This document shows positions 5,866 to 16,674 of a DNA stretch of 16,674 bases, in pieces. A program made the position numbers and the translations under genes. The stretch is from a virus (Duplodnaviria; Heunggongvirae; Uroviricota; Caudoviricetes), in the IMG/VR virus record IMGVR_UViG_2778261169_000001, positions 1 through 16,674 of that record; one strand, 5' to 3'. Each line of letters opens with the position of its first letter. Within the stretch, counting starts at the first letter, position 1. The notes under the pieces were generated by a model. The model made no database searches. It was not told the DNA's origin and saw nothing but the letters and a program-made list of their open reading frames with translations.

Positions 5866-6128
5866 GTGGAAAGGATGCCGACTGGAAAGGCTAGTGGCAA
5901 TCAAGTGGAGTTTTATGGGAGATGAAACAACAATTATCAGCTTTAAAATATCAGTATAATTCATCCCATTAGATTAATGAGAGCCACATAAAGGATTTAT
6001 CAAATAGCAAAACTTAGAAATGAAATAAATCTCATAGACATTTCATCATGATATAAAATTATTTTCCGAACCCTTACCAAAGCAGATATGGGGCTAAATT
6101 ATCAAACAGCCCCACGAATATTAAAACA

Positions 6129-6707
6129 TTATTTTCCACAAACCATATTATCTATCGCAGCCATATAGGATACAAACAGATCTACATAACCACTTACGTC
6201 AGTGAGACTAATATCATTTGCATTGTCGTTATGATGAATAATGTTATTTCTCTTTACAACCACTGCATTCACAACATCCTTATTCGCATTAAATTCCGCC
6301 GAATTCAAAAGATTAACACCCAAATAAGAAAATGCCTTAATCGTCTTGTAAGGATTACCAGACAGGCTATCCGACACCTCACTTTTCTCAACCTTTAAAT
6401 CAGCATCTATATATTTCAACTCCTTATCTTTAACATCTTTTTTGACTCGCCAAAGCAAAAAATTGTGTGGCAAGCAGGCTGCTTTGAGCCTGCGATTGAT
6501 GGTATCGCAGTGCCATGTTGCAACCTCAGTCAAATACGACTCTAAATAAGTGCAGAGTGTAATAAGATACGATTTAACAAAAAAATTAATGTTCTTATTG
6601 AAGAATTCATTTTCCTCAAGGATAGCCTGTTGCTCCGTCTCCTTAATAATTTCTTTTAAGGATAAAAATAATGAACGATATCCATCATAGTATTCAGTAT
6701 TTTCCAT
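6129..6707 (-). CDS. Hypothetical protein with C-terminal R-x4-H motif (possible HEPN-type RNase), second gene of the island pair
   Basis: 192 aa from ATG 6707-6705 (the track starts 3 nt upstream at a TTG). AAGGAAG lies 6 nt upstream; the start overlaps the upstream gene's 3' end by 14 nt. Motif VVKRNNIIHHND at residues 151-162 is encoded at ~6231-6251. AT-rich codon usage. Confidence 0.6.
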   Translation of the reverse strand: MENTEYYDGYRSLFLSLKEIIKETEQQAILEENEFFNKNINFFVKSYLITLCTYLESYLTEVATWHCDTINRRLKAACLPHNFLLWRVKKDVKDKELKYIDADLKVEKSEVSDSLSGNPYKTIKAFSYLGVNLLNSAEFNANKDVVNAVVVKRNNIIHHNDNANDISLTDVSGYVDLFVSYMAAIDNMVCGK

Positions 6708-7743
6708 CAATAACTTCCTTAAGAAGTGCCACCCAACTAGCCCTACGCTTCATCACCGAACTCTTATTCTGTAGCCCACCTGATAAAGTTTTTTTGAACT
6801 CAGCACTTGAACAAAGAGTAAACCAAGCATTCCGTATTTGTTCGGACTTTTCATTTACAATATCATCATTTAACTTGCCAATTGTAGGCATTAAAATGTC
6901 ATAATGAACTAACCCTTTACGTTTTCTCCTAACTGTAGGGTTTGTAAATACATCTTCACCAAATATTTTTTCACACTTAGATAATGATGTTTTGAATCTC
7001 TCCCTCATAATATTCAGTTCATCATCTTTTAAGTCTGAAAATTTTTCCATATGATCATCCAAGAATTCTTTCAAGGAGCTATCAAAGTAATCAAAAAAGT
7101 TATCTTCATAAAATGCAAAAAAACGCAAAACTTGTTCGTCTGGCTCACGACTATCTCTTTTTACTGTAGTTGTTTCCGCCAAACCAAAATTTTTAATGGC
7201 ATCAATATTACCTAACTCTTCTAATAATTCATCAAACCCTCCCGGATATAACGCATGTCTTATTTCTTGATCAGAAAGTTTAACTGCCCCCTGATTGAGT
7301 CTAGAAAATATCTCTCTTATTAATTTTTTGGGATTTTCTTTTCTTAGAACAATGCATCTTATTGTTGTCGACTCTAACTCTGAACGTAGAGATCCTAATT
7401 CAGAAAACTTTTTCCCTTCAAGCTCTTTAAATGTAGTCATTCCCTCCAAAGCGAACTCGTCATCAAAAAATTTCTGTATTGTGGTTAATCGCTGAACACC
7501 ATCAATTACAATATGATTGCCGCTATCATCTTCTGCAAAGTAACAAGATGGAAGAGGAATACGCATTAAACAAGATTCAATGAATTTTGAAGATCGCAGC
7601 CATCCGTCCTGATCCCATTTGTACTTTCTTTGAAAGTCTGGATTCAGTTTTAGTTTGATGGGATTGGACTTCATCCTAGAACATAAAGTCTCAAATGGAT
7701 AATCTATGGGGAATAAATTCAATGTTTTATCATCGTTAGACAT
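6694..7743 (-). CDS. DUF262 (ParB-like/GmrSD N-terminal domain) protein, no recognisable nuclease domain
   Basis: 349 aa; ATG 7743-7741 with AAGGA 7 nt upstream. DUF262 hallmarks: NPDFQRKYKW (aa 35-44), IVIDGVQRLTT (DGQQR-type motif, aa 78-88, DNA ~7489-7503) and IFSRLNQGAVKLSDQEIRHALY (F-x-R-x-N...G...L...E, aa 145-166). The C-terminal ~170 aa is helical with no HNH/DUF1524-like His-Me motif that I can see. Confidence 0.75.
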   Translation of the reverse strand: MSNDDKTLNLFPIDYPFETLCSRMKSNPIKLKLNPDFQRKYKWDQDGWLRSSKFIESCLMRIPLPSCYFAEDDSGNHIVIDGVQRLTTIQKFFDDEFALEGMTTFKELEGKKFSELGSLRSELESTTIRCIVLRKENPKKLIREIFSRLNQGAVKLSDQEIRHALYPGGFDELLEELGNIDAIKNFGLAETTTVKRDSREPDEQVLRFFAFYEDNFFDYFDSSLKEFLDDHMEKFSDLKDDELNIMRERFKTSLSKCEKIFGEDVFTNPTVRRKRKGLVHYDILMPTIGKLNDDIVNEKSEQIRNAWFTLCSSAEFKKTLSGGLQNKSSVMKRRASWVALLKEVIDGKY

Positions 7744-7800
7744 GCTTCAATCCTTGTAAGTAAAAGCTTAAAAAATCAACGAGGTAGCAGACAACAACAA

Positions 7801-7829
7801 TATTTACCATTTTTTATGATTAAGGTCAA
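7801..7829 (-). promoter_or_regulatory. Candidate sigma70 promoter for the island genes
   Basis: On the minus strand: TTGACC (7829-7824), 17-nt spacer, TGgTAAATA extended -10 (7809-7801). Lies in the 135-bp S-to-island intergenic region, about 55 nt upstream of the DUF262 ATG. Confidence 0.3.
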
Positions 7830-7878
7830 AAGGTCGGTAAGCTAGGATTCGTCTTATGAGACTTGCAACCGTAAATAG

Positions 7879-8325
7879 TCAATTTAGATGTTCAATAACC
7901 AATTTTTCAATCAACAAATTGTCTCCAAAGTCAACACCAAGCAACTGCCGTTCTGGGTATTGCACGTCCTGAGCATGTGGGTTTGGCCGGTCTTTAAGTC
8001 CGAGCTGATGAATCTGAGCAATACGTTGCACCTTGCCGGTAAACTCGACCACCGCTGCATCATCGCGGCCTCTGGCTTTCATGTAGCGGTTCGTTCGCAA
8101 CTTCTGAAACATCGTCCGCTTAATACGCCCTTTCTTCGCTCTGAGCGGCTGGCGTTTTCGCGCCTGATACGGCGTGCCATCAGGCGCTTTTTGCTGTTTG
8201 ATGCGTTGCTGTTGCGATCTGCGCAGTTGCTTTGCTATTTCAGCGGCCAGCTTACGCCGACCCGCCGGTGATATTGCCGCAATCAACCCCGCAAGTTTGT
8301 CATCAAAAGGCTTAAATTCATTCAT
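7879..8325 (-). CDS. S: Tail completion protein S (P2 gpS-like)
   Basis: 148-aa ORF (P2 S is 150 aa) directly downstream of R with an 8-nt overlap; ATG at 8325-8323; basic N-terminal half typical of gpS. Confidence 0.85.
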   Translation of the reverse strand: MNEFKPFDDKLAGLIAAISPAGRRKLAAEIAKQLRRSQQQRIKQQKAPDGTPYQARKRQPLRAKKGRIKRTMFQKLRTNRYMKARGRDDAAVVEFTGKVQRIAQIHQLGLKDRPNPHAQDVQYPERQLLGVDFGDNLLIEKLVIEHLN

Positions 8326-8785
8326 CCCACTTACTCACCAGCTCGCCATTGATATACAGCTCAGTCGGTCGCGTGACAGGCTCAGGTAATGGCGGTTCAG
8401 GCGCATAGCTGACGTGTAACGCGCCGTTTTCATCTCTGACGAGGGTGCGCTCGGTGAGTTGCAGGCTGATACTGATATCCACATTATCACCGTCGTTTAA
8501 ATCCATCTGGAATCGATAGCCCTTTTTGCGCCCCTCATCCAGCGTGCAGATATCCGGCTGGTTCTCACGCAGCCACACCGCCACCGGCACGAAAATCAGG
8601 TCAGGGTCGCCCACAAAATCGCAGACAATCACATTCAGGGTGTAATTCTTTTCATGAGACAGCGAGTCTGCGAGACGCGCATCGATATTCCCCTCATCGG
8701 CAAAGATGCGCATCATCTCGGGGTTATTCAGGATCTGAGGGACGGCGTCATTCAGCGCTTTGCGCAGGCTTTTCATTTTCTGCAT
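8318..8785 (-). CDS. R: Tail completion protein R (P2 gpR-like)
   Basis: Start trimmed to ATG 8785-8783 (MQKMKSLRKALNDAVPQILNNPEMMRIF...), giving ~155 aa as for P2 R; the ATG at 8776 is an alternative. C-terminus ...EPVTRPTELYINGELVSKWDE matches my recollection of P2 R. Confidence 0.8.
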   Translation of the reverse strand: MQKMKSLRKALNDAVPQILNNPEMMRIFADEGNIDARLADSLSHEKNYTLNVIVCDFVGDPDLIFVPVAVWLRENQPDICTLDEGRKKGYRFQMDLNDGDNVDISISLQLTERTLVRDENGALHVSYAPEPPLPEPVTRPTELYINGELVSKWDE

Positions 8786-9038
8786 CGATTTTATCCTGAC
8801 AGTCTTTGATGGTTTCGACCTTAATTGCACAGGCGGTGAGCGCGTGCTCAAGCCTCCGAATATCGGCACTCAGATCACCGTTATTGACGGGGTCGCTTCC
8901 CGGCATCGGGCAGAGACTCACCTTCGGGCAGGCGTTGTAAACAACGGGCGGCGGAGGCGCAGCCCGTTCGGATGTGCAACCGACGCACAGCATCAGGCAG
9001 CTTATCGCTGTACCAGCGGCGTAACGTCTCGTTTTCAT
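8748..9038 (-). CDS. lysC: Outer-membrane spanin lipoprotein (Rz1/LysC-like o-spanin)
   Basis: 96-aa ORF in a different frame, overlapping the 3' part of Rz and the 5' end of R. N-terminus MKTRRYAAGTAISCLMLCVGC has a signal peptide and lipobox-like CVGC; followed by Pro-rich APPPPVVYNACPKVSLCPMPGSDP. Confidence 0.75.
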   Translation of the reverse strand: MKTRRYAAGTAISCLMLCVGCTSERAAPPPPVVYNACPKVSLCPMPGSDPVNNGDLSADIRRLEHALTACAIKVETIKDCQDKIDAENEKPAQSAE

Positions 9039-9306
9039 TCATCAACCTCGTTATGGTTTCTTCCCGCTTTACCGCCTGCTCACCGGCAACGGCCAGCTCA
9101 TCACCGAGCCTGACCTGCGCATCCTCATTCGCACTTGCGATTCGCTGCGATACGGCAAGCTGATTTTTCAGCATGCCAATCGTCGTCTTTTGCTCGCTGG
9201 CAACGCGGCTCGCTTTCTCAAAAGACCGGGATAAGTTCACGTTATCGTGGCGCAGCCACAGCACCATGGCGAGCAACCCTGCCAGCAGAATCATCAGCAC
9301 TTTCAT
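8881..9306 (-). CDS. lysB: Inner-membrane spanin (Rz/LysB-like i-spanin)
   Basis: 141 aa; N-terminal transmembrane segment MKVLMILLAGLLAMVLWL followed by a charged, coiled-coil-like periplasmic region. Its ATG overlaps the endolysin stop (ATGA) and it contains the Rz1 frame. Confidence 0.8.
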   Translation of the reverse strand: MKVLMILLAGLLAMVLWLRHDNVNLSRSFEKASRVASEQKTTIGMLKNQLAVSQRIASANEDAQVRLGDELAVAGEQAVKREETITRLMNENETLRRWYSDKLPDAVRRLHIRTGCASAARCLQRLPEGESLPDAGKRPRQ

Positions 9307-9812
9307 TGCATCCCCTTTACGCAGTAAGCCCGCTCCCGCGCACGGCGGTTCTCCAGCCCTTTATTTTTTGTGCCGTTGACATACACCCAGCGGGTGAGCT
9401 GGTCGCATGCCTGCCACCACTGGTGACGCTTGATATAAGAGACCAGAGTCGACCGACAGGCCGCACCGGTTCCGACGTTAAACGCAAAACTGACCAGCGA
9501 GTTATAGACGCGCGGTGGCATATCCACCGGCACACAGACCGCGAGCCGTTGCTCGACGTTGAGCACATCGGCAATGAGATTCTCCGCCGCGCGCTGTTCG
9601 GTAATATCCCCTTTCGGGACCACCCCGGCAGTGTGGCCGATGCCCGACGTCCACACTCCCGCGCTGCACTGGTAAGGTGTCAGGCGACATCCTTCGAGGT
9701 CGGCAATCAGTGCCAGCCCCTCGGGCGAGGTGTTAAGCAGACGAAAATCAGGCACCAGTGCCGCCAGCGCCAGCACGGCGGCCACACTGCAGCGTTTAAT
9801 GATTGAGCTCAC
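9303..9812 (-). CDS. SAR endolysin, T4-lysozyme-like (GH24) fold, phage 21 R21 / P1 Lyz type
   Basis: Recalled similarity to phage 21 R: FNVGTGAACRSTL, ACDQLTRWVYVNG and RRARERAYC blocks. The N-terminus has a hydrophobic Ala/Leu-rich SAR segment (SVAAVLALAALV). Start uncertain: I prefer GTG 9812-9810 (AGGGGG 6 nt upstream); the track uses TTG at 9836. Confidence 0.85.
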   Translation of the reverse strand: MSSIIKRCSVAAVLALAALVPDFRLLNTSPEGLALIADLEGCRLTPYQCSAGVWTSGIGHTAGVVPKGDITEQRAAENLIADVLNVEQRLAVCVPVDMPPRVYNSLVSFAFNVGTGAACRSTLVSYIKRHQWWQACDQLTRWVYVNGTKNKGLENRRARERAYCVKGMQ

Positions 9813-10017
9813 GGGCAGCCCCCTTATCGGGTCCAAGTGAGGTCAGGTAGCGGTAGGTTTTACGCTTAAACCAGTAATTCGTCAGCGCGGTAAAAATGGC
9901 GCAGGCACTCCCCACATAGAGCGCCAGCTTTTCGGGGGACATAGCCCCGAAATACGCCAGCCCCACGGCCAGCCAGTAAGCGAAAAACGTCGTGATTTTT
10001 TCCACACTCAGTCCCAT
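9796..10017 (-). CDS. Holin, class II / pinholin-like (two predicted TMDs)
   Basis: 73 aa with two hydrophobic segments (ITTFFAYWLAVGLAYFGAM and LALYVGSACAIFTALTNYWF) and a basic C-terminal tail; directly upstream of and overlapping the SAR endolysin; ATG at 10017-10015. Confidence 0.7.
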   Translation of the reverse strand: MGLSVEKITTFFAYWLAVGLAYFGAMSPEKLALYVGSACAIFTALTNYWFKRKTYRYLTSLGPDKGAARELNH

Positions 10018-10211
10018 AAATTCACCGTTTCAGTTTTCGGGGCGCTGTCGGTTTCGGGCAGTTCTATTGTCGTGCCGTGCGGCAGAATAACGCCCAGCTC
10101 CGACAGCCCCGGATTCGCCCACAGCACCGTTTCAACGACGCCCTCAGTGCGCCCGTAATACCGGGCGCAAATCGCATCGAGGGTGTCACCCTGCATCGCC
10201 CGGACCTTCAT
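10008..10211 (-). CDS. X: LysM-domain tail protein X (P2 gpX-like)
   Basis: Start trimmed to ATG 10211 (MKVRAMQGDTLDAICARYYG..., ~67 aa as in P2 X), which overlaps the L stop codon. The sequence reads as a LysM-like motif. Confidence 0.8.
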   Translation of the reverse strand: MKVRAMQGDTLDAICARYYGRTEGVVETVLWANPGLSELGVILPHGTTIELPETDSAPKTETVNLWD

Positions 10212-10717
10212 CAGATTTGACCGACAATACAGCGCGGCTTGTCCTGAATACGCGCCACAGACCAGCGCATATCCCGCCACAGTTCATCGATAACCGCCTC
10301 AGTGCTTTCCGCTTTACGGTCGCCTTTCGCCGTCGCATCGATGCCGCGATAACGCTCAAACAGCGTGGCGCTGGTCATGGCGCAGACGGCGCGGAAATAG
10401 TGAAAACAGCGCACGCTTTCGCCATCGATATCATCGGCAGGCACATCAGCCAGCGTGTCATGCCCTGCGGCCATCTGCTCAACCCGCCACAGAGCAAGCT
10501 CCGCATTGGTTTCAGCCATACCGGCTTTAATCGCATCATTCAGGCGCAGCGCGGAAACGGTCTGCTCCAGACGCATCAGCTCACGCACACGCTTCGGATC
10601 CACATCAGGAAAAAAGAAGGTGTTTTTTATTACAGGTTCACTCACGCCCGGTGGCGGAATGACCACGCCCGGCACGTCCTGCGGCTCTTTTTTTGGCTCA
10701 ATAATCACTGTCGTCAT
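10211..10717 (-). CDS. L: Head completion/stabilisation protein L (P2 gpL-like)
   Basis: 168 aa (P2 L is 169), ATG at 10717-10715, located between M and X as in P2. Confidence 0.85.
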   Translation of the reverse strand: MTTVIIEPKKEPQDVPGVVIPPPGVSEPVIKNTFFFPDVDPKRVRELMRLEQTVSALRLNDAIKAGMAETNAELALWRVEQMAAGHDTLADVPADDIDGESVRCFHYFRAVCAMTSATLFERYRGIDATAKGDRKAESTEAVIDELWRDMRWSVARIQDKPRCIVGQI

Positions 10718-10816
10718 GACAACCTCGGGTAATGGGTGGGCGGTGGACGCCGGTCGCAGTCAGGGCAATCAATGCCCGCATTGACCGGCGTGCCGCCCGG
10801 CTCGGGGAGCGCTCTG

Positions 10817-11572
10817 TTAACCTGCGGCTTTTGCCGCTTTCGGGGGACGCCCGCGCCGTGCCGCCGGTTTAGCGGCAGGTTTGCGCGTGCGCGGTTTATT
10901 CTGTTTGGGTGCAGGTTCTGCTTTGGGTTTCAGCGCGCGCTCGAGCTGTTCAATATCCTTTTTCACACCGATAGCCCGCTCTAACTGGATCGCACGCTGC
11001 AGGTGCGTCAGCGCGTCAGTCAGACGGCCAGCCTCACGCAGCACGTAGCCGGTAATTTTGTGCAGCTTCGCGCGCACGATATCCGGCATGTCTGCCCGTT
11101 CGGTCAGTGCGATGGTGTCGAGCAGGAGCGGCAGCCCGACAGGCTGTTTCGCATCGAGCAGGCGCTGCGCTGACAGGGCGACCTCTTCGGCCAGCAAATA
11201 CGGCGTGGTGCGCCGGTGGCCGCCGGTCGGCATGGTCAGGCCATAGGTCATCGCATAGCGGGCAATCTCCAGCGCACCGGCGATGTCATCCGCATCGAGA
11301 CGCCACAGCATGACGGTCATGACAATGTCATCCTGCGCCCCTTTACCGGAGCTGAGAACGCCACCCACCCACGGCAGATAAAACGGCAACAGCTCGCGCT
11401 TTTTGTCTGCCTTGCGCTCGTTGGAGCGGATTTGTTTTAACGTGCGACAGTCTGCGGCCAGCTTGACGAGCATCTGCTCATAGGCAGTTGCATTACGCAG
11501 CGGAGCAGCAGCCCGCCGCGCAGTTTCAGAGGCCGAGACCCGCATCATGTGACGCGCTGCGGGACTCGTCAT
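10817..11572 (-). CDS. M: Terminase small (endonuclease) subunit M (P2 gpM-like)
   Basis: 251 aa; N-terminus MTSPAARHMMRVSA...PLRNATAYEQMLVKLAAD and the basic C-terminal tail match my recollection of P2 M. Confidence 0.88.
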   Translation of the reverse strand: MTSPAARHMMRVSASETARRAAAPLRNATAYEQMLVKLAADCRTLKQIRSNERKADKKRELLPFYLPWVGGVLSSGKGAQDDIVMTVMLWRLDADDIAGALEIARYAMTYGLTMPTGGHRRTTPYLLAEEVALSAQRLLDAKQPVGLPLLLDTIALTERADMPDIVRAKLHKITGYVLREAGRLTDALTHLQRAIQLERAIGVKKDIEQLERALKPKAEPAPKQNKPRTRKPAAKPAARRGRPPKAAKAAG

Positions 11573-11575
11573 GGC

Positions 11576-12643
11576 TTACTCTCCGCTTTCCGGTGCGGCA
11601 GGTGCGGTGAAGTCACCTAAATTGATGTTCTCAATCAGGCAACCGGCCGCGTAAGCCTCGATCACATAGTCAATATTCATTGACTCGTAGTTTTCGATAC
11701 GGTCTTTTTTCGGCTCTTCAATGATGGCGCGGCGGTGTGCGTCATCCATGAAGTAAATCGACAGGTTATCGAGACGCGTCACCATCAGGGCATTCGCCGG
11801 GAAGTACGGCACACGCACGGCGGGGAGGTTGCCGATCCGCTTCTGGCTGATGATGATGTCAGCGGCCAGCGTTTCGCTGTTTTCCTGCGTCTTGTTGACC
11901 AGCGGGAAATATTTATCCGCCATCAGCTTACGGCCAGTGATAACGACGAGCTCCGGGTCATCCTGATAAATCTCATCAATCAGGTTGGTGGTCGCATCCA
12001 TGACCAGCGCATCGAGGTTTTCATAGTCACCATTTTTACCCACGCGGATCACATCGGAAATAACCTTGCCGTCTTCGTCGGTGATTTTTGACATCACGCG
12101 CGCTGCAGCTTCATTGCGGTACTTCTGCAGCCAGCCCACCGCCACATCCTGCAGCATCGGATTGTTTTTACGGCTGGAGGTCGCCGCACGGGTGATACCG
12201 TTGAAACCGGCCATAATGAAATCGAGCGACTGGCGCTTGATAATCGCGTCACGGATACGGGTCTGAAAGTCCTGGAATCGCGCCCACAGGTCGAGCTGTT
12301 TGTAACGGATGTGGAAATCGAAGTTGATTTGCGCGCATTCGTATTTGTTGGATTCGAGCGCGGTAAAATCAGCGGTCTTACGTTCATCATCAGCGGCAGT
12401 ATCGGTGGTGCTGGCAATCGTACCGTTGACGCCCACCCCGACTTTTTCGCCTTTCAGCTCGTCGACCGGCACGATATTCACTTTGGTCAGAAACGCGGAT
12501 GACGCCTGCAGAGTGGTCATCAGGGTTTGCGTCACGGACGGCTCGACGGTGAATTTCTTTGCCACATCGTCGGTGTCGACGCCGTTCAGTTCCGCCACGC
12601 GGGACAGGTAAGCATTAAATTTAAAGCGGGTATCTTTACGCAT
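11576..12643 (-). CDS. N: Major capsid protein N (P2 gpN-like)
   Basis: Start trimmed to ATG 12643-12641 (MRKDTRFKFNAYLSRVAELNG...), preceded by AGGA and matching the P2 N N-terminus. The track's longer ORF from 12673 has no RBS. Confidence 0.9.
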   Translation of the reverse strand: MRKDTRFKFNAYLSRVAELNGVDTDDVAKKFTVEPSVTQTLMTTLQASSAFLTKVNIVPVDELKGEKVGVGVNGTIASTTDTAADDERKTADFTALESNKYECAQINFDFHIRYKQLDLWARFQDFQTRIRDAIIKRQSLDFIMAGFNGITRAATSSRKNNPMLQDVAVGWLQKYRNEAAARVMSKITDEDGKVISDVIRVGKNGDYENLDALVMDATTNLIDEIYQDDPELVVITGRKLMADKYFPLVNKTQENSETLAADIIISQKRIGNLPAVRVPYFPANALMVTRLDNLSIYFMDDAHRRAIIEEPKKDRIENYESMNIDYVIEAYAAGCLIENINLGDFTAPAAPESGE

Positions 12644-12703
12644 TGTTATTCCTGTTTCTCTAAAAAGGGGCATCAGGCCGGGTGACGCGCACCCGGCGGG
12701 TTA

Positions 12704-13558
12704 TCAGCAGTTGGTCAGCAGCTCGTCGCCCATTCCGCCTTTCGACTTCTCGCGGCGCGGCTGGCGATGGCTTTCGGTGTTATCGAGGGAACTTTTCAGC
12801 GTGGTAAACGCCTGCGCGTTTTCTTCGGTCTGGCGGGTCACATCCTGCTTAAACTGCGCAAATGCGGTTTCGAGTTCGGTTAAACGTTTTTCGCTATTGC
12901 TCAGGCTGGTCTGCACCTGCTCAGTGACTGTAGTGACCGCCTCATGCACATCTGCCAGACGCCCGTCATCGCTCGCCTGCTTGCGGCTGAAAATGGCTTT
13001 GACCTTGTCGGTCAGGCTGTTGAGGACAGTATCGGGGACGTCCTCGAATTCCAGCTCAGCCAGCGTGGCAACGGAAAACAGGTCGTCAGGGTGAGCTTTT
13101 TTACCGGCCAACGGGTTCTGGGTCGCACGGCTGCAGAATTCGAGGTATTCGGTGCCGAGGCTTGCCGGGTCATCGGTCACCGCCAGGCCAACGAGATAAC
13201 ATTTGCCGCTGTTGGCGAAGTTAGGGCGGATCTCCATCGAGGTGTAAACTTTCTGACCGCTGCGCACCATGCTGACCAGTTCGTCCAGCGGTGCGATTTT
13301 GCCAAACAGCGCCTTTTTGCCATTCAGGGCAGAGTCATCGCTGATGATTTCCGCTTTCACTTCGGTCACGTCGCCATAACGTTTGAGCACACTGTCGGGC
13401 AGAATGCCGCGCAGGTGTTCGAGGTTGATGCGGCAACCGTAGACGCGCGGGTCGAAGGAATCCGCCATTTCCTGAATGTCATCACCGCTGATGACACGGC
13501 CATCGCAGGTGTCACCCTCGACGCCGATGCGAAACCATTTAGAAACTTTCTTTGCCAT
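12704..13558 (-). CDS. O: Capsid scaffolding protein O (P2 gpO-like)
   Basis: 284 aa; MAKKVSKWFRIGVEGDTCDGRVISGDDIQEMADSFDPRVYGCRINLEHLRG closely matches the P2 O N-terminus as I recall it. Confidence 0.9.
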   Translation of the reverse strand: MAKKVSKWFRIGVEGDTCDGRVISGDDIQEMADSFDPRVYGCRINLEHLRGILPDSVLKRYGDVTEVKAEIISDDSALNGKKALFGKIAPLDELVSMVRSGQKVYTSMEIRPNFANSGKCYLVGLAVTDDPASLGTEYLEFCSRATQNPLAGKKAHPDDLFSVATLAELEFEDVPDTVLNSLTDKVKAIFSRKQASDDGRLADVHEAVTTVTEQVQTSLSNSEKRLTELETAFAQFKQDVTRQTEENAQAFTTLKSSLDNTESHRQPRREKSKGGMGDELLTNC

Positions 13559-13724
13559 TGTTCAGGTGTCCTGATATTGGGTTTTCGGTTCGGGGGTAGT
13601 TTCCCGACTCCGCCCCGCATCAGCCACCGCTTGCGGAAGTGCAACCCCTGACACAACAGGGGGTTAGCGATAATGCCCGGCTATTTCCTTAGCCTTGCCC
13701 CGTATTCACCAGTACGAGGCAACC
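13559..13724. promoter_or_regulatory. Divergent intergenic region between O and P (expected site of the P2-type divergent late promoters)
   Basis: 166-bp gap between divergently transcribed O and P; contains an inverted repeat AACCCCTG-N6-CAGGGG (13643-13662). No perfect TGT-N12-ACA activator-site dyad found. Confidence 0.4.
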
Positions 13725-15494
13725 ATGACCATTTCGACTGACCTCTCCCTTTTGCATGACCCGCGACGACAGGCGCGGCTGTTGTTCTGGCAGGGATTTT
13801 CCGTACCACAAATCGCCGACACACTGCAGGTAAAGCGCCCGACCGTGCAGAGCTGGAAACAGCGCGACGGGTGGGAGGAAACCGCCCCGCTTAATCGCGT
13901 GGAAACGACGCTCGAGGCGCGCCTGATCCAGCTTTATGCAAAGCCTGACCTGACGCCGCATGACTTCAAGGTCGCTGATTTTCTGTCACGCCAGATGGAG
14001 CGATTCGCACGCATCAACCGCTACGGCCAGACCGGTAATGAAGTGGATTTAAACCCCAACATTGCGAGCCGCAATAAAGGGGATCGCAAAAAGCCGAAAC
14101 GCAATTATTTCAGCGACGAGGCCATCGAAAAGCTGGAAGAGATTTTCTTCGATCAGTCCTTTGAGTATCAGCTCAACTGGCACAAGGCCGGTATCGCGCA
14201 CCGTATTCGCCACATCCTCAAATCACGCCAGATTGGCGCGACGTTCTACTTTGCGCGTGAGTCCCTCCTGCGTGCGCTTAAGACCGGGCAAAACCAGATA
14301 TTTTTGTCAGCCAGTAAGACGCAGGCTTACGTGTTCCGAAAGTACATCATCGCCTTTGCGCGCATGGTCGACGTCGACCTGTCAGGAGACCCGATTGTCA
14401 TCGGCAACAACGGCGCAGAGCTGATTTTTCTCGGGACAAACTCAAACACTGCGCAGAGCCATAACGGCGACCTGTATGTCGATGAAATCTTCTGGATCCC
14501 CAACTTTCAGAAGCTGCGCAAAGTCGCCTCGGGGATGGCGTCGCAGTCCCACCTGCGCACCACCTACTTTTCAACACCCTCAACGCTGGCACATGGCGCG
14601 TATCCGTTCTGGTCAGGTGAACTGTTTAACCGGGGACGCAGCAACGCGAGCGAGCGCGTCGACATCGATATCAGCCACAAAGCGCTCGCCGGTGGCGTGC
14701 TGTGCCCGGACGGCCAGTGGCGGCAGATTGTCACCATCGAGGACGCACTCGCCGGGGGATGCACCCTGTTTAATCTGGATCAGCTGAAACAGGAAAACAG
14801 CGCCGACGATTTTCGCAACCTCTTCATGTGCGAGTTTGTTGACGATAAAGCGTCGGTATTCCCGTTCGAGGAGCTACAGCGCTGCATGGTCGATGCGATG
14901 GAAGAATGGGAGGACTTTGCGCCGTTCTCTGACCGTCCGTTTAACTGGCGCCCGGTCTGGATTGGCTATGACCCGTCGCACACCGGCGACAGCGCTGGCT
15001 GTGCGGTACTGGCTCCACCACTGGTTCCCGGTGGCAAGTTCCGCATCCTTGAGCGTCACCAGTGGAAAGGGATGGATTTTGCGACACAGGCCGAGGCTAT
15101 CCGCGAGCTGACCGGGAAATATTGCGTCGAGTACATCGGCATCGATGCGACCGGCATCGGCCAGGGGGTTTACCAGCTCGTGCGCTCCTTCTTCCCGGCG
15201 GCGCGTGCCATTCGCTACACGCCGGAAATGAAAACTGCGATGGTGCTGAAAGCGAAAGACACCATCCGTCGCGGATGTCTGGAATATGACGCCGGTGCGA
15301 CCGACATCACACAGTCATTTATGGCTATCCGTAAAACCATGACCAGCAGCGGGCGCAGCTCCACCTATGAGGCCAGCCGCAGCGAAGAGGCCAGCCACGC
15401 GGATATTGCGTGGGCGACCATGCACGCCCTGTTAAACGAACCGCTTTCCGCCGGTAGCGGCATGCAATCAACCTCAATTCTGGATATTAACTAA
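13725..15494 (+). CDS. P: Terminase large (ATPase) subunit P (P2 gpP-like)
   Basis: Start set at ATG 13725 (GAGG 6 nt upstream), giving 589 aa (P2 P is 590). The track ORF starts 30 nt upstream at a TTG. The stop TAA is 1 nt before the Q ATG. Confidence 0.9.
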   Translation: MTISTDLSLLHDPRRQARLLFWQGFSVPQIADTLQVKRPTVQSWKQRDGWEETAPLNRVETTLEARLIQLYAKPDLTPHDFKVADFLSRQMERFARINRYGQTGNEVDLNPNIASRNKGDRKKPKRNYFSDEAIEKLEEIFFDQSFEYQLNWHKAGIAHRIRHILKSRQIGATFYFARESLLRALKTGQNQIFLSASKTQAYVFRKYIIAFARMVDVDLSGDPIVIGNNGAELIFLGTNSNTAQSHNGDLYVDEIFWIPNFQKLRKVASGMASQSHLRTTYFSTPSTLAHGAYPFWSGELFNRGRSNASERVDIDISHKALAGGVLCPDGQWRQIVTIEDALAGGCTLFNLDQLKQENSADDFRNLFMCEFVDDKASVFPFEELQRCMVDAMEEWEDFAPFSDRPFNWRPVWIGYDPSHTGDSAGCAVLAPPLVPGGKFRILERHQWKGMDFATQAEAIRELTGKYCVEYIGIDATGIGQGVYQLVRSFFPAARAIRYTPEMKTAMVLKAKDTIRRGCLEYDAGATDITQSFMAIRKTMTSSGRSSTYEASRSEEASHADIAWATMHALLNEPLSAGSGMQSTSILDIN

Positions 15495-15495
15495 G

Positions 15496-16503
15496 ATGAA
15501 AAAACGACAGAAGAAACCCGCCAACATGACCGCCAGCACACCGCAAAAAATGGAGGCGTTCACCTTTGGTGTGCCTTCCCCGGTTCTGGATCGCCGCGAC
15601 ATTCTCGACTACGTAGAGTGTATCAATAACGGGAAATGGTACGAGCCGCCGGTCAACTTCTCGGGGCTGGCAAAAAGCCTGCGCGCCTCCGTTCATCACA
15701 GCTCGCCGATTTACGTGAAACGTAACATTCTGGCGAGCACCTACATTCCGCACCCGTTGCTGTCACGTCAGGACTTCAGCCGCCTGGTGCTCGATTATCT
15801 GGTCTTTGCCAACGGCTATCTTGAGAAGCGCATGAGCGTCACCGGCCAGCTCTTAAAACTGGAAACCTCACCGGCTAAATACACCCGCCGGGGTGTCGAA
15901 GATGGCGTTTACTGGTACGTGTCGAACTACACCCAGCCGCACCCGTTCGCACCCGATTCCGTTTTCCATCTGCTTGAGCCCGATATCAATCAGGAGTTGT
16001 ACGGGATGCCGGAATACCTGAGCGCACTTAATTCTGCCTGGCTGAATGAGTCCGCTACGCTGTTTCGCCGCAAGTATTACCAGAACGGCGCGCACGCGGG
16101 GTACATCATGTACGTCACCGACGCCGCGCAAAGCAGTACCGACGTCGAGTCGCTCCGCAACGCGATGCGTGACTCGAAAGGACTCGGGAATTTCAAAAAC
16201 TTGTTTTTCTACGCGCCCAACGGCAAACCGGATGGCATCAAGATTGTGCCGTTGAGTGAAGTCGCCACGAAAGATGATTTTTTCAATATCAAAAAGGTTA
16301 GTGCAGAAGATTTGTTGAGTGCTCATAGGGTACCACCACAAATGATGGGAATTATGCCTAACAATGTTGGCGGTTTTGGTGATGTTGTAAAAGCTGCACA
16401 AGTGTTTGTCCGAAATGAGTTAACTCCTTTACAGGAACGGTTCAAAGAACTAAACAACTGGTTAGAAATGGAAGTTATAAGATTTAAAAAATATTCACTT
16501 TGA
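15496..16503 (+). CDS. Q: Portal protein Q (P2 gpQ-like)
   Basis: 335 aa (P2 Q is 344), immediately downstream of P on the same strand, the P2 arrangement. The last ~80 codons are markedly AT-rich. Confidence 0.88.
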   Translation: MKKRQKKPANMTASTPQKMEAFTFGVPSPVLDRRDILDYVECINNGKWYEPPVNFSGLAKSLRASVHHSSPIYVKRNILASTYIPHPLLSRQDFSRLVLDYLVFANGYLEKRMSVTGQLLKLETSPAKYTRRGVEDGVYWYVSNYTQPHPFAPDSVFHLLEPDINQELYGMPEYLSALNSAWLNESATLFRRKYYQNGAHAGYIMYVTDAAQSSTDVESLRNAMRDSKGLGNFKNLFFYAPNGKPDGIKIVPLSEVATKDDFFNIKKVSAEDLLSAHRVPPQMMGIMPNNVGGFGDVVKAAQVFVRNELTPLQERFKELNNWLEMEVIRFKKYSL

Positions 16504-16570
16504 TTTTCAAAATAAACATCTCAACATTATATTCAGCCCTGTAACTCAAGAACCACAGATAAATAAATAT

Positions 16571-16595
16571 CCTCCGGCATAGCCGGAGGTTTTTC
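16571..16595 (+). terminator. Rho-independent terminator downstream of Q
   Basis: Perfect hairpin CCTCCGGC-ATA-GCCGGAGG (16571-16589) followed by TTTTT (16590-16594), about 68 nt after the Q stop. Confidence 0.75.
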
Positions 16596-16674
16596 AAATG
16601 CGCCTATAAGGCTCTCTTACCAGCCGCGCCCTAACAGGCGCACACGATCTGACATTTGCATCCAACTTCGTTAC

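What the first reader, a model, noticed from the sequence alone, without database searches (positions are those of the whole stretch)
16265..16674. Abrupt shift to AT-rich sequence inside the 3' end of the portal gene
Up to about 16265 Q has the GC-rich codon usage of the rest of the phage. The last ~80 codons and the downstream region, including the terminator, are AT-rich while the reading frame continues. This looks like a homologous-recombination breakpoint that swapped in the portal C-terminus and adjacent region from a lower-GC relative. In a P2-type prophage the cos site and the old/tin accessory locus lie just beyond, so the neighbouring region outside the window may be foreign cargo.
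Basis: seen in the sequence. Interest (0 to 1): 0.45.

Follow-up and report, generated by a model that had tools for sequence, protein, structure and literature searches.

The report
Defence-cassette recombination junction inside portal gene
The AT-rich end of this P2-like prophage's portal gene is real: it is the left edge of a swappable, foreign gene cassette at the already known defence hotspot next to the phage's cos site, so this is a clean example of a known process, not a new kind of element.

Summary
In the portal gene gpQ (15496-16503, +), third-codon-position GC falls from 0.71 to 0.26 over the last ~68 codons while GC1/GC2 and the reading frame stay unchanged (z = -5.7 against backbone genes).

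Comparison with E. coli prophages shows a true mosaic:
- The tail and the AT-rich cargo that follows it in relatives (a DUF3696/AAA_15 ATPase plus a 370-aa protein) are 98-100% identical across backbones whose gpQ 5' parts are only 86-93% identical.
- The closest backbones, A15 and KV7, carry other cargo and tails only 62-64% identical.
- Breakpoints scatter over 16224-16361, most at 16287-16304, which fits homologous crossover rather than a fixed site.
- In relatives the AT-rich block ends just before the cos core.

Across about 110-120 P2-like loci, an AT-rich portal tail goes with cargo inserted between gpQ and cos, and tail identity tracks cargo identity.

- 16265-16298 is a family-wide conserved AT-rich motif, so the foreign DNA starts at about 16299.
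- The "terminator" and the last 114 bases belong to an inserted IS200C.
- The cargo lies before cos, not beyond it.

No low-GC donor was found. The hotspot and this cargo arrangement are already catalogued (Rousset 2022).

The parts
13695..15494 (+). Terminase large subunit (gpP homologue). It sits upstream in the same transcription direction as the portal and serves here as backbone context.
   Evidence: Pfam Terminase_6N, Terminase_6C and Terminase_5. GC3 is 0.71. Annotated as a terminase ATPase subunit in the 100%-identical E. coli prophage.
15496..16503 (+). Portal gene (gpQ homologue, 335 aa), intact but chimeric.
   Evidence: Pfam Phage_portal PF04860, residues 85-323. One open frame. 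Identical in at least 29 complete E. coli genomes.
15496..16224 (+). Native, backbone-type part of the portal gene (GC3 about 0.7).
   Evidence: 91-93% identical to A15, KV7 and GPT24, and 86% to EC11. Its GC3 matches the other late genes.
16225..16304 (+). Crossover zone. This stretch is conserved in all relatives and includes the family-wide AT-rich motif at 16267-16296 (KDDFFNIKK). Four of the five distinct pairwise breakpoints (six comparisons; E66 coincides with A15) fall here.
   Evidence: Max-chi-square breakpoints: GPT24 at 16224, EC11/UTAK6 at 16287, A15 and E66 at 16298, KV7 at 16304, all with permutation p <= 0.008. Alignment; family conservation and GC.
16299..16503 (+). Foreign AT-rich portal tail (codons 269-335, GC3 0.26). 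It is part of the exchangeable cassette.
   Evidence: 98-100% identical among prophages carrying the DUF3696 cargo, whatever their backbone, and 62-64% identical to the tails of other relatives. Synonymous sites are saturated against GC-type tails and dN is 0.23. Its GC3 equals that of the cargo genes, 0.25-0.27.
16504..16560 (+). AT-rich 3' intergenic remnant of the cassette, shared with relatives. It is cut off from the rest of the cassette by the IS.
   Evidence: 100% identical to L005 up to 16560-16562. GC is 0.32.
16561..16674 (-). Right end of an inserted IS200C (IS200/IS605 family), with its subterminal hairpin at 16571-16589. The stop codon of tnpA (- strand) is at 16671-16673, and the gene itself lies beyond the window.
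   Evidence: 100% identical to IS copies in phage Lambda_ev058 and in 2141 E. coli records, annotated as IS200C tnpA. The adjacent 152-aa ORF in the Lambda_ev058 copy is Pfam Y1_Tnp. The junction maps to 16561-16563. Hairpin found. None of the 253 other loci fetched by then has the IS at this site.

Best explanation
The composition shift marks the left boundary of a horizontally exchanged cassette at the known gpQ-cos-gpA variable (defence) hotspot of P2-like phages. The exchange unit has three parts: the last ~68 codons of the portal gene, a short intergenic region, and, in relatives lacking the IS, a 2.7-kb AT-rich two-gene cargo (a DUF3696/AAA_15 ABC-type ATPase plus a 370-aa partner, convergent with gpQ). 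That cargo runs up to a few bases before the cos core. The cassette entered this backbone through a homologous crossover in the conserved stretch of gpQ at about 16225-16304. The other end of the exchange is the cos site, which is the physical left end of the packaged genome. One crossover in gpQ together with compatible cohesive ends, or a second crossover in the cos core, is therefore enough to swap the cargo. The tail still encodes a conserved, in-frame portal C-terminus, so the chimeric portal is presumably functional. The tail's synonymous sites have the same composition as the cargo, which suggests that tail and cargo spent a long time together in a lower-GC P2-like phage. Later, an IS200C inserted 58-60 bp after the portal stop. 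Shown here: the composition shift, the mosaicism, the breakpoints, the cos boundary, the family-wide linkage of tail with cargo, and the IS. Inferred: the recombination pathway, the role of the cos ends, the low-GC donor, and the defence function of the cargo.
For: GC3 drops from 0.71 to 0.26 with GC1/GC2 constant. The tail plus cargo is 97-100% identical between L005 and EC11/UTAK6, while the flanks are 78-95% identical. Tail dS is 0.05 against 0.82 for the 5' part with EC11, whereas the tail is saturated against A15, whose 5' dS is only 0.32. The identity matrices for the 5' part and the tail are incongruent. Breakpoints are significant and scattered. Each relative carries different cargo at the same place: DUF262, a retron-like RT plus nuclease, a kinase plus phosphatase, or a P-loop NTPase. 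Sequence shared by all relatives starts exactly at the cos core GCGCGCAATGCT..CCCCGCC.CGCC, so the sequence specific to each cargo type ends just before it. Tail GC3 equals cargo GC3. Among 122 loci, no portal with gpQ-cos < 400 bp shows a GC3 drop > 0.2, against 30 of 95 with cargo on the gpQ side (p = 1e-11). At matched 5' identity, pairs with the same cargo have tail identity 0.96-0.98, against 0.78-0.82 for different cargo. DNA beyond cos is often unrelated even when the gpQ-side cargo is 98-99% identical. Rousset et al. 2022 (PMC9122126) describe the hotspot and speculate about cos ends plus one homologous crossover, and their supplement lists this very cargo.
Against: No donor phage with a low-GC portal throughout and a closely matching tail was found in GTDB species representatives, IMG/VR or JGI metagenomes; the next best tails are only about 76% identical at nucleotide level. 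The window ends inside the IS, so whether the cargo and cos are present in this genome is unknown. KV7 and E66 carry gpQ-side cargo but GC-type tails (GC3 about 0.6), so a junction inside gpQ need not produce an AT-rich tail. The surveyed loci were retrieved by similarity to this tail and are not phylogenetically independent, so the p-values overstate the support. The recombination pathway (host RecA, phage-encoded, or cos-end-driven) is untested.
Confidence: 0.85

Rival explanations
1. The AT-rich 3' end is an ancestral, vertically inherited feature of this phage lineage's portal gene.
For: Several related E. coli prophages of similar GC (GPT24, EC11, UTAK6) carry the same tail. The first 34 bases of the AT-rich run are indeed a family-wide conserved motif.
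Against: The nearest backbones, A15 and KV7 (91-93% in the 5' part), have tails only 62-64% identical with GC3 0.6-0.7. The more distant EC11 (86%) shares the tail at 99%. Tail dS is 0.05 against 5' dS 0.82.
Confidence: 0.03
2. The AT-richness arose in place, through local mutation bias or through selection acting on the DNA next to AT-rich cargo (for example spreading of H-NS-type silencing, or slow-codon selection at the gene's 3' end), rather than by import from a low-GC donor.
For: No donor was found. A moderate GC3 drop recurs in many independent tail alleles next to gpQ-side cargo, which could reflect a common local pressure.
Against: It does not explain near-identity of tail plus cargo across diverged backbones. 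The shift is abrupt, within about 30 bases, and not a gradient. dN of 0.23 shows the tail protein itself is a deeply diverged allele, not the local allele with altered synonymous sites.
Confidence: 0.07
3. The cargo was inserted by a site-specific or illegitimate mechanism (integrase-like, transposon-like or IS-mediated), and the portal tail was dragged along or duplicated in the process.
For: An IS200C lies directly next to the AT-rich segment in this window. Older work on P2-like coliphages invoked site-specific recombination for other variable loci (the title of Nilsson et al. 2004, cited; the paper was not read).
Against: At least 29 E. coli genomes have the same tail and cargo without the IS, and none of the 253 other loci fetched by then has the IS there. 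Breakpoints differ between pairs (16224, 16287, 16298, 16304, 16361) and lie in ordinary conserved coding sequence. No recombinase or transposase is annotated among the cargo genes of the loci inspected. IS200-family elements do not mobilise flanking DNA (general knowledge).
Confidence: 0.05

Closest known systems
The gpQ-cos-gpA ('old/tin') defence hotspot of P2-like phages (Rousset et al. 2022, PMC9122126; Moura de Sousa et al. 2026, PMC13586616; Odegrip et al. 2006, not read)
   Same: The position is the same, directly downstream of the portal gene and next to cos. Close relatives carry different AT-rich two-gene cargoes there. This exact cargo (WP_000906719 plus an AAA_15/AAA_21 ATPase) is listed in Rousset's supplementary table. 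Rousset's speculated mechanism of cos ends plus one homologous crossover matches the boundaries seen here.
   Different: The passages retrieved from those papers by term searches treat gpQ as a fixed flank; I did not read the papers in full. Here the exchange boundary lies about 200 bp inside the portal ORF, so the portal C-terminus is part of the swapped unit. The cargo lies on the gpQ side of cos, whereas P2 old/tin lie on the gpA side, and the two sides assort independently.
Mosaic junctions within genes of tailed phages (modular evolution by homologous recombination at conserved segments, as described for lambdoid phages)
   Same: There is an abrupt change in similarity and composition inside an intact ORF. 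The histories on the two sides are incongruent. Crossover points lie in a conserved stretch.
   Different: One end of the exchanged module is defined by the genome's physical end (cos), not by a second stretch of ordinary homology.
IS200C (IS200/IS605 family)
   Same: The last 114 bases of the window are 100% identical to IS200C ends, including the subterminal hairpin.
   Different: Only the end of the element lies in the window. Insertions in P2 hotspots are reported to be almost nonexistent (PMC13586616), and no relative has this one.

Membership tests
P2-like phage gpQ-cos-gpA defence hotspot | The locus lies in a P2-like (Peduoviridae) late region, directly downstream of the portal gene gpQ, which follows the terminase gene gpP. 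| tested here: met
   Pfam portal and terminase domains. Synteny with 186, PSP3 and E. coli P2-like prophages.
P2-like phage gpQ-cos-gpA defence hotspot | Closely related phages carry different, unrelated gene sets at this position. | tested here: met
   Cargoes seen: DUF3696 ATPase plus 370-aa protein; DUF262 plus a hypothetical protein; RT plus ATP-dependent nuclease; Ser/Thr kinase plus PP2C; P-loop NTPase plus a hypothetical protein; or none.
P2-like phage gpQ-cos-gpA defence hotspot | The variable region is adjacent to the cos site. | tested here: met
   In relatives the cargo ends 0-5 nt before the cos core. This cannot be tested in the window itself, which ends in the IS before cos.
P2-like phage gpQ-cos-gpA defence hotspot | The cargo confers anti-phage defence. 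| not testable with these tools
   There are only profile hits: NsnB 5e-55, PDC-M55A 6.5e-46 and AriA 2e-31 for the ATPase, and PDC-M55B 2e-4 for the partner. The cargo is not inside the window.
Homologous-recombination mosaic junction | The two sides of the junction have significantly different divergence and incongruent relationships. | tested here: met
   Max-chi-square p <= 0.008 for every pair tested. The identity matrices are and the dS contrast.
Homologous-recombination mosaic junction | Crossover points vary between events and lie in sequence conserved between the partners. | tested here: met
   Breakpoints at 16224, 16287, 16298, 16304 and 16361, within a stretch that is nearly identical in all relatives.
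Homologous-recombination mosaic junction | A donor lineage carrying the imported segment in its native context can be identified. | tested here: not met
   Apart from copies of the same allele, the best tails are about 76% identical at nucleotide level (85-88% at amino-acid level). No portal is low-GC throughout and also has a matching tail.
IS200/IS605-family insertion sequence (IS200C) | The terminal sequence with its subterminal hairpin is identical to known copies, next to a Y1 transposase gene. | tested here: met
   100% identity over 114 bases to copies annotated as IS200C tnpA. Hairpin. The neighbouring ORF in a reference copy is Pfam Y1_Tnp. The tnpA gene itself lies beyond the window end.
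   The hairpin lies inside the IS. Relatives have a different hairpin, CACAGCCC-N8-GGGCTGTG, at L005 10074-10098, which in this genome would lie beyond the IS.

The most novel reading that the evidence does not exclude
In P2-like phages the last ~70 codons of the portal gene are a regular part of the mobile defence cassette. The gpQ-side sub-hotspot is the physical left end of the virion DNA, so a single homologous crossover inside gpQ, together with universally compatible cos ends, swaps cargo between co-resident phages. This would explain why the hotspot sits at cos. It would also mean that defence turnover keeps reshuffling the portal C-terminus, with possible consequences for terminase docking, for exploitation by P4, or for recognition by portal-sensing immune systems.
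Probability: 0.3. Interest if true: 0.55.

Novelty: new member of a known kind. Interest (0 to 1): 0.3.

Why it matters
The mechanism that drives the very fast cargo turnover at the P2/P4 cos-proximal hotspots is an acknowledged open point. Rousset 2022 only speculates about it, and Moura de Sousa 2026 lists alternatives. This locus, together with the small survey done here, gives concrete boundaries for the exchange unit: scattered crossovers within the last ~280 bp of gpQ on one side, and the cos core on the other. That makes the 'cos end plus one homologous crossover' idea directly testable. It also warns that gpQ is not a neutral flank: its C-terminus is co-transferred. The element itself is an ordinary instance of a known hotspot, and its cargo arrangement is already catalogued.

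Tried and rejected
- **Donor search.** I searched with the 68-aa tail in GTDB species genomes, IMG/VR and JGI metagenomes (analysed). Only identical alleles or tails about 76% identical at nucleotide level turned up. Portals from Providencia and Arsenophonus are low-GC throughout, but their tails are only 66-72% identical at amino-acid level.
- **Cargo partner in phage records.** A tblastn search with the 370-aa partner found only a 27%-identical Pseudomonas phage OLD-like nuclease, which gives no clue to origin.
- **Rfam.** Scanning the whole window returned no family.
- **Solved structures.** A PDB sequence search with the portal found no relative, so I could not assign the tail to a portal domain. 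I did not run structure prediction because it would not change the verdict.
- **Prior literature.** Odegrip 2006, which might describe the borders of the variable locus, is not held in the library.
- **Second AT-rich island (about 5966-7878).** I checked whether it also invades its flanking core genes. The low GC3 at the start of the mechanical 'V' ORF is upstream non-coding sequence, and gene S shows only a mild drop, so there is no clear parallel.
- **The 16571-16594 hairpin as the portal terminator.** Rejected, because it lies inside IS200C.
- **IS-mediated import of the AT-rich DNA.** Rejected, because relatives have the same tail and cargo without the IS.

Full report
**What the window is.** The window is the late region of a P2/186-like (Peduoviridae) prophage. 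On the - strand it runs from the tail sheath gene through the tail fibre, baseplate, lysis and head genes. On the + strand it continues with the terminase large subunit (13695-15494) and the portal gene gpQ (15496-16503). Window 6496-16560 is 100% identical to a prophage of E. coli WCHEC005784 (NZ_CP028578.2, locus L005). The same portal region (window 15496-16560) occurs at 100% identity in at least 29, and at >=99.9% in 34, complete E. coli genomes.

**Checking the observation.** The shift is real.
- GC is 0.553 over 15496-16264 and 0.348 over 16265-16560.
- Inside the ORF only the third codon position changes: GC3 goes from 0.71 to 0.26, GC1 and GC2 stay constant, and the frame stays open.
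- The tail value lies 5.7 standard deviations below 3041 equally long windows in the backbone genes, whose minimum is 0.44. Fisher's exact test gives p = 5e-11.

First, 16265-16298 (KDDFFNIKK) is AT-rich in the whole family, with mean GC 0.33 in 200 portals, and is nearly invariant in relatives. It is therefore native sequence. Second, 16561-16674 is the end of an IS200C element:
- It is 100% identical to IS200C copies.
- Its junction maps to 16561-16563.
- The tnpA stop codon sits at 16671-16673 on the - strand, by comparison with the Lambda_ev058 copy, whose neighbouring ORF is Pfam Y1_Tnp.
- The hairpin plus T-run at 16571-16594 lies inside it.

Relatives without the IS have a different hairpin between gpQ and the convergent cargo gene.

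**What lies beyond gpQ in relatives.** In L005 the AT-rich block (GC about 0.33) runs from inside gpQ for about 3.0 kb. It contains two - strand genes, a 370-aa protein and a 518-aa AAA_15/AAA_21/DUF3696 ATPase. It stops a few bases before the cos core GCGCGCAATGCTTACCCCGCCTCGCC. In 186, PSP3 and cargo-less prophages, gpQ and cos are only about 170 bp apart.

Other close relatives hold different cargo in the same place:
- DUF262 plus a hypothetical protein (S42)
- a Ser/Thr kinase plus PP2C (KV7)
- a P-loop NTPase plus a hypothetical protein (E66)

A15 instead has its cargo, an RT plus nuclease, on the other side of cos. This is the gpQ-gpA hotspot of Rousset et al. 2022 and Moura de Sousa et al. 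2026. The WP_000906719 plus AAA_15/AAA_21 arrangement is listed in Rousset's supplement. PADLOC profiles place the ATPase near NsnB, PDC-M55A and AriA, and the partner weakly near PDC-M55B. Its function is untested.

**Evidence for mosaicism.** In gpQ codons 10-250 the E. coli relatives form two subclades:
- window, GPT24, A15 and KV7, 91-93% identical to each other
- EC11, UTAK6, S42 and E66, about 86% identical to the window

In codons 269-335 the grouping changes. Window, GPT24, EC11 and UTAK6 are 98-100% identical, and all four carry the DUF3696 cargo. A15, KV7, E66 and 186 are only 62-64% identical to the window.

Synonymous divergence tells the same story. Against EC11 it is 0.82 in the 5' part and 0.05 in the tail. 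Against A15 it is 0.32 in the 5' part but saturated in the tail, with dN 0.23, which exceeds the 5' dN between the window and 186 (0.094). Between L005 and EC11, identity is 78-92% in the gpQ 5' part, 97-100% from the tail through the cargo, and 87-95% beyond cos.

Max-chi-square breakpoints fall at 16224 (GPT24), 16287 (EC11 and UTAK6), 16298 (A15 and E66), 16304 (KV7) and 16361 (S42), all significant by permutation. Scattered crossover points within conserved coding sequence argue for homologous rather than site-specific exchange.

**The cos boundary.** In every phage with gpQ-side cargo, sequence shared with the other phages starts exactly at the cos core. In several independent pairs the gpQ-side cargo is 98-99% identical while the 600 bases beyond cos are unrelated. 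The two sides of cos therefore assort independently. After cos cleavage the gpQ-side cassette is the physical left end of the packaged genome. This fits Rousset's speculation that cohesive ends provide one recombination end and a homologous crossover provides the other. That part remains inference.

**Generalisation.** I retrieved portals from GTDB genomes, IMG/VR and metagenomes. Of these, 122 non-redundant portals had an identifiable cos core downstream.
- The 27 with gpQ-cos < 400 bp show no GC3 drop in the tail (mean -0.01; none above 0.2).
- The 95 with cargo between gpQ and cos show a mean drop of 0.14, and 30 exceed 0.2 (Mann-Whitney p = 1e-11).
- At matched 5' identity, pairs sharing cargo have tail identity 0.96-0.98, against 0.78-0.82 for pairs with different cargo.

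The sample is biased towards tails resembling the query, and the loci are not independent. I treat this as supportive evidence, not proof.

**Origin of the AT-richness.** Tail GC3 (0.26) equals the GC3 of the two cargo genes (0.27 and 0.25). This suggests long co-residence of tail and cargo in a lower-GC P2-like phage. No such donor was found, because the next best tails are only about 76% identical at nucleotide level. The direction and source of the transfer therefore remain inferred.

**Verdict.** The feature is a well-resolved instance of cassette exchange at an already described hotspot. What appears to go beyond the passages I retrieved from those papers is that the exchange unit reaches about 200 bp into the portal ORF and ends at the cos core. 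Interest is modest.

Noticed in passing
window 6129-7743 (- strand); AT-rich island about 5966-7878: There is a second AT-rich island (GC about 0.34) between the baseplate gene V and the virion morphogenesis gene S, which is where orf30 lies in P2 (position recalled from memory, not checked). It encodes a HEPN_RiboL-PSP protein (193 aa) and a DUF262/GmrSD_N protein (349 aa). The latter matches PADLOC NsnA (6.6e-80) and PD-T4-2_A (9.5e-43). This looks like a probable two-gene defence cargo.
   Followed up: partly
window 16561-16674: An IS200C has inserted 58-60 bp downstream of the portal stop, inside the defence hotspot. No relative has it there, and the literature reports transposable elements as almost nonexistent in P2 hotspots. 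On the + strand, its end hairpin plus T5 run looks like a terminator for the portal transcript.
   Followed up: partly
L010 (E. coli S42) portal tail, aligned to window 16299-16503: The S42 tail is itself mosaic. It is close to the window's AT allele up to about 16361 and then switches to a different AT-rich allele (GC3 0.39) linked to a DUF262 cargo. This suggests nested crossovers within the tail.
   Followed up: partly
L002 and L003 (PSP3, 186) 2226-2972, compared with window 15494-15496: 186 and PSP3 have an extra 747-bp ORF between the terminase gene and the portal gene, annotated as similar to Orf12. This phage lacks it: here the terminase stop and the portal start are 1 base apart.
   Followed up: no
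L005, L007, L008 and L009 cos cores (for example L005 12840-12865): The 19-nt cohesive-end region differs by 1-3 bases among close relatives (GCTTACCCC, GCTATCCCC or GCTTTCCCC, and CGCCTCGCC or CGCCACGCC), even where the adjacent cargo is 98% identical.
   Followed up: no
window 7879-8325 (- strand), gene S: Gene S has a lower overall GC3 (0.51) than the other late genes (0.59-0.71). The lowest values are at both of its ends, including the end that abuts the second AT-rich island.
   Followed up: partly
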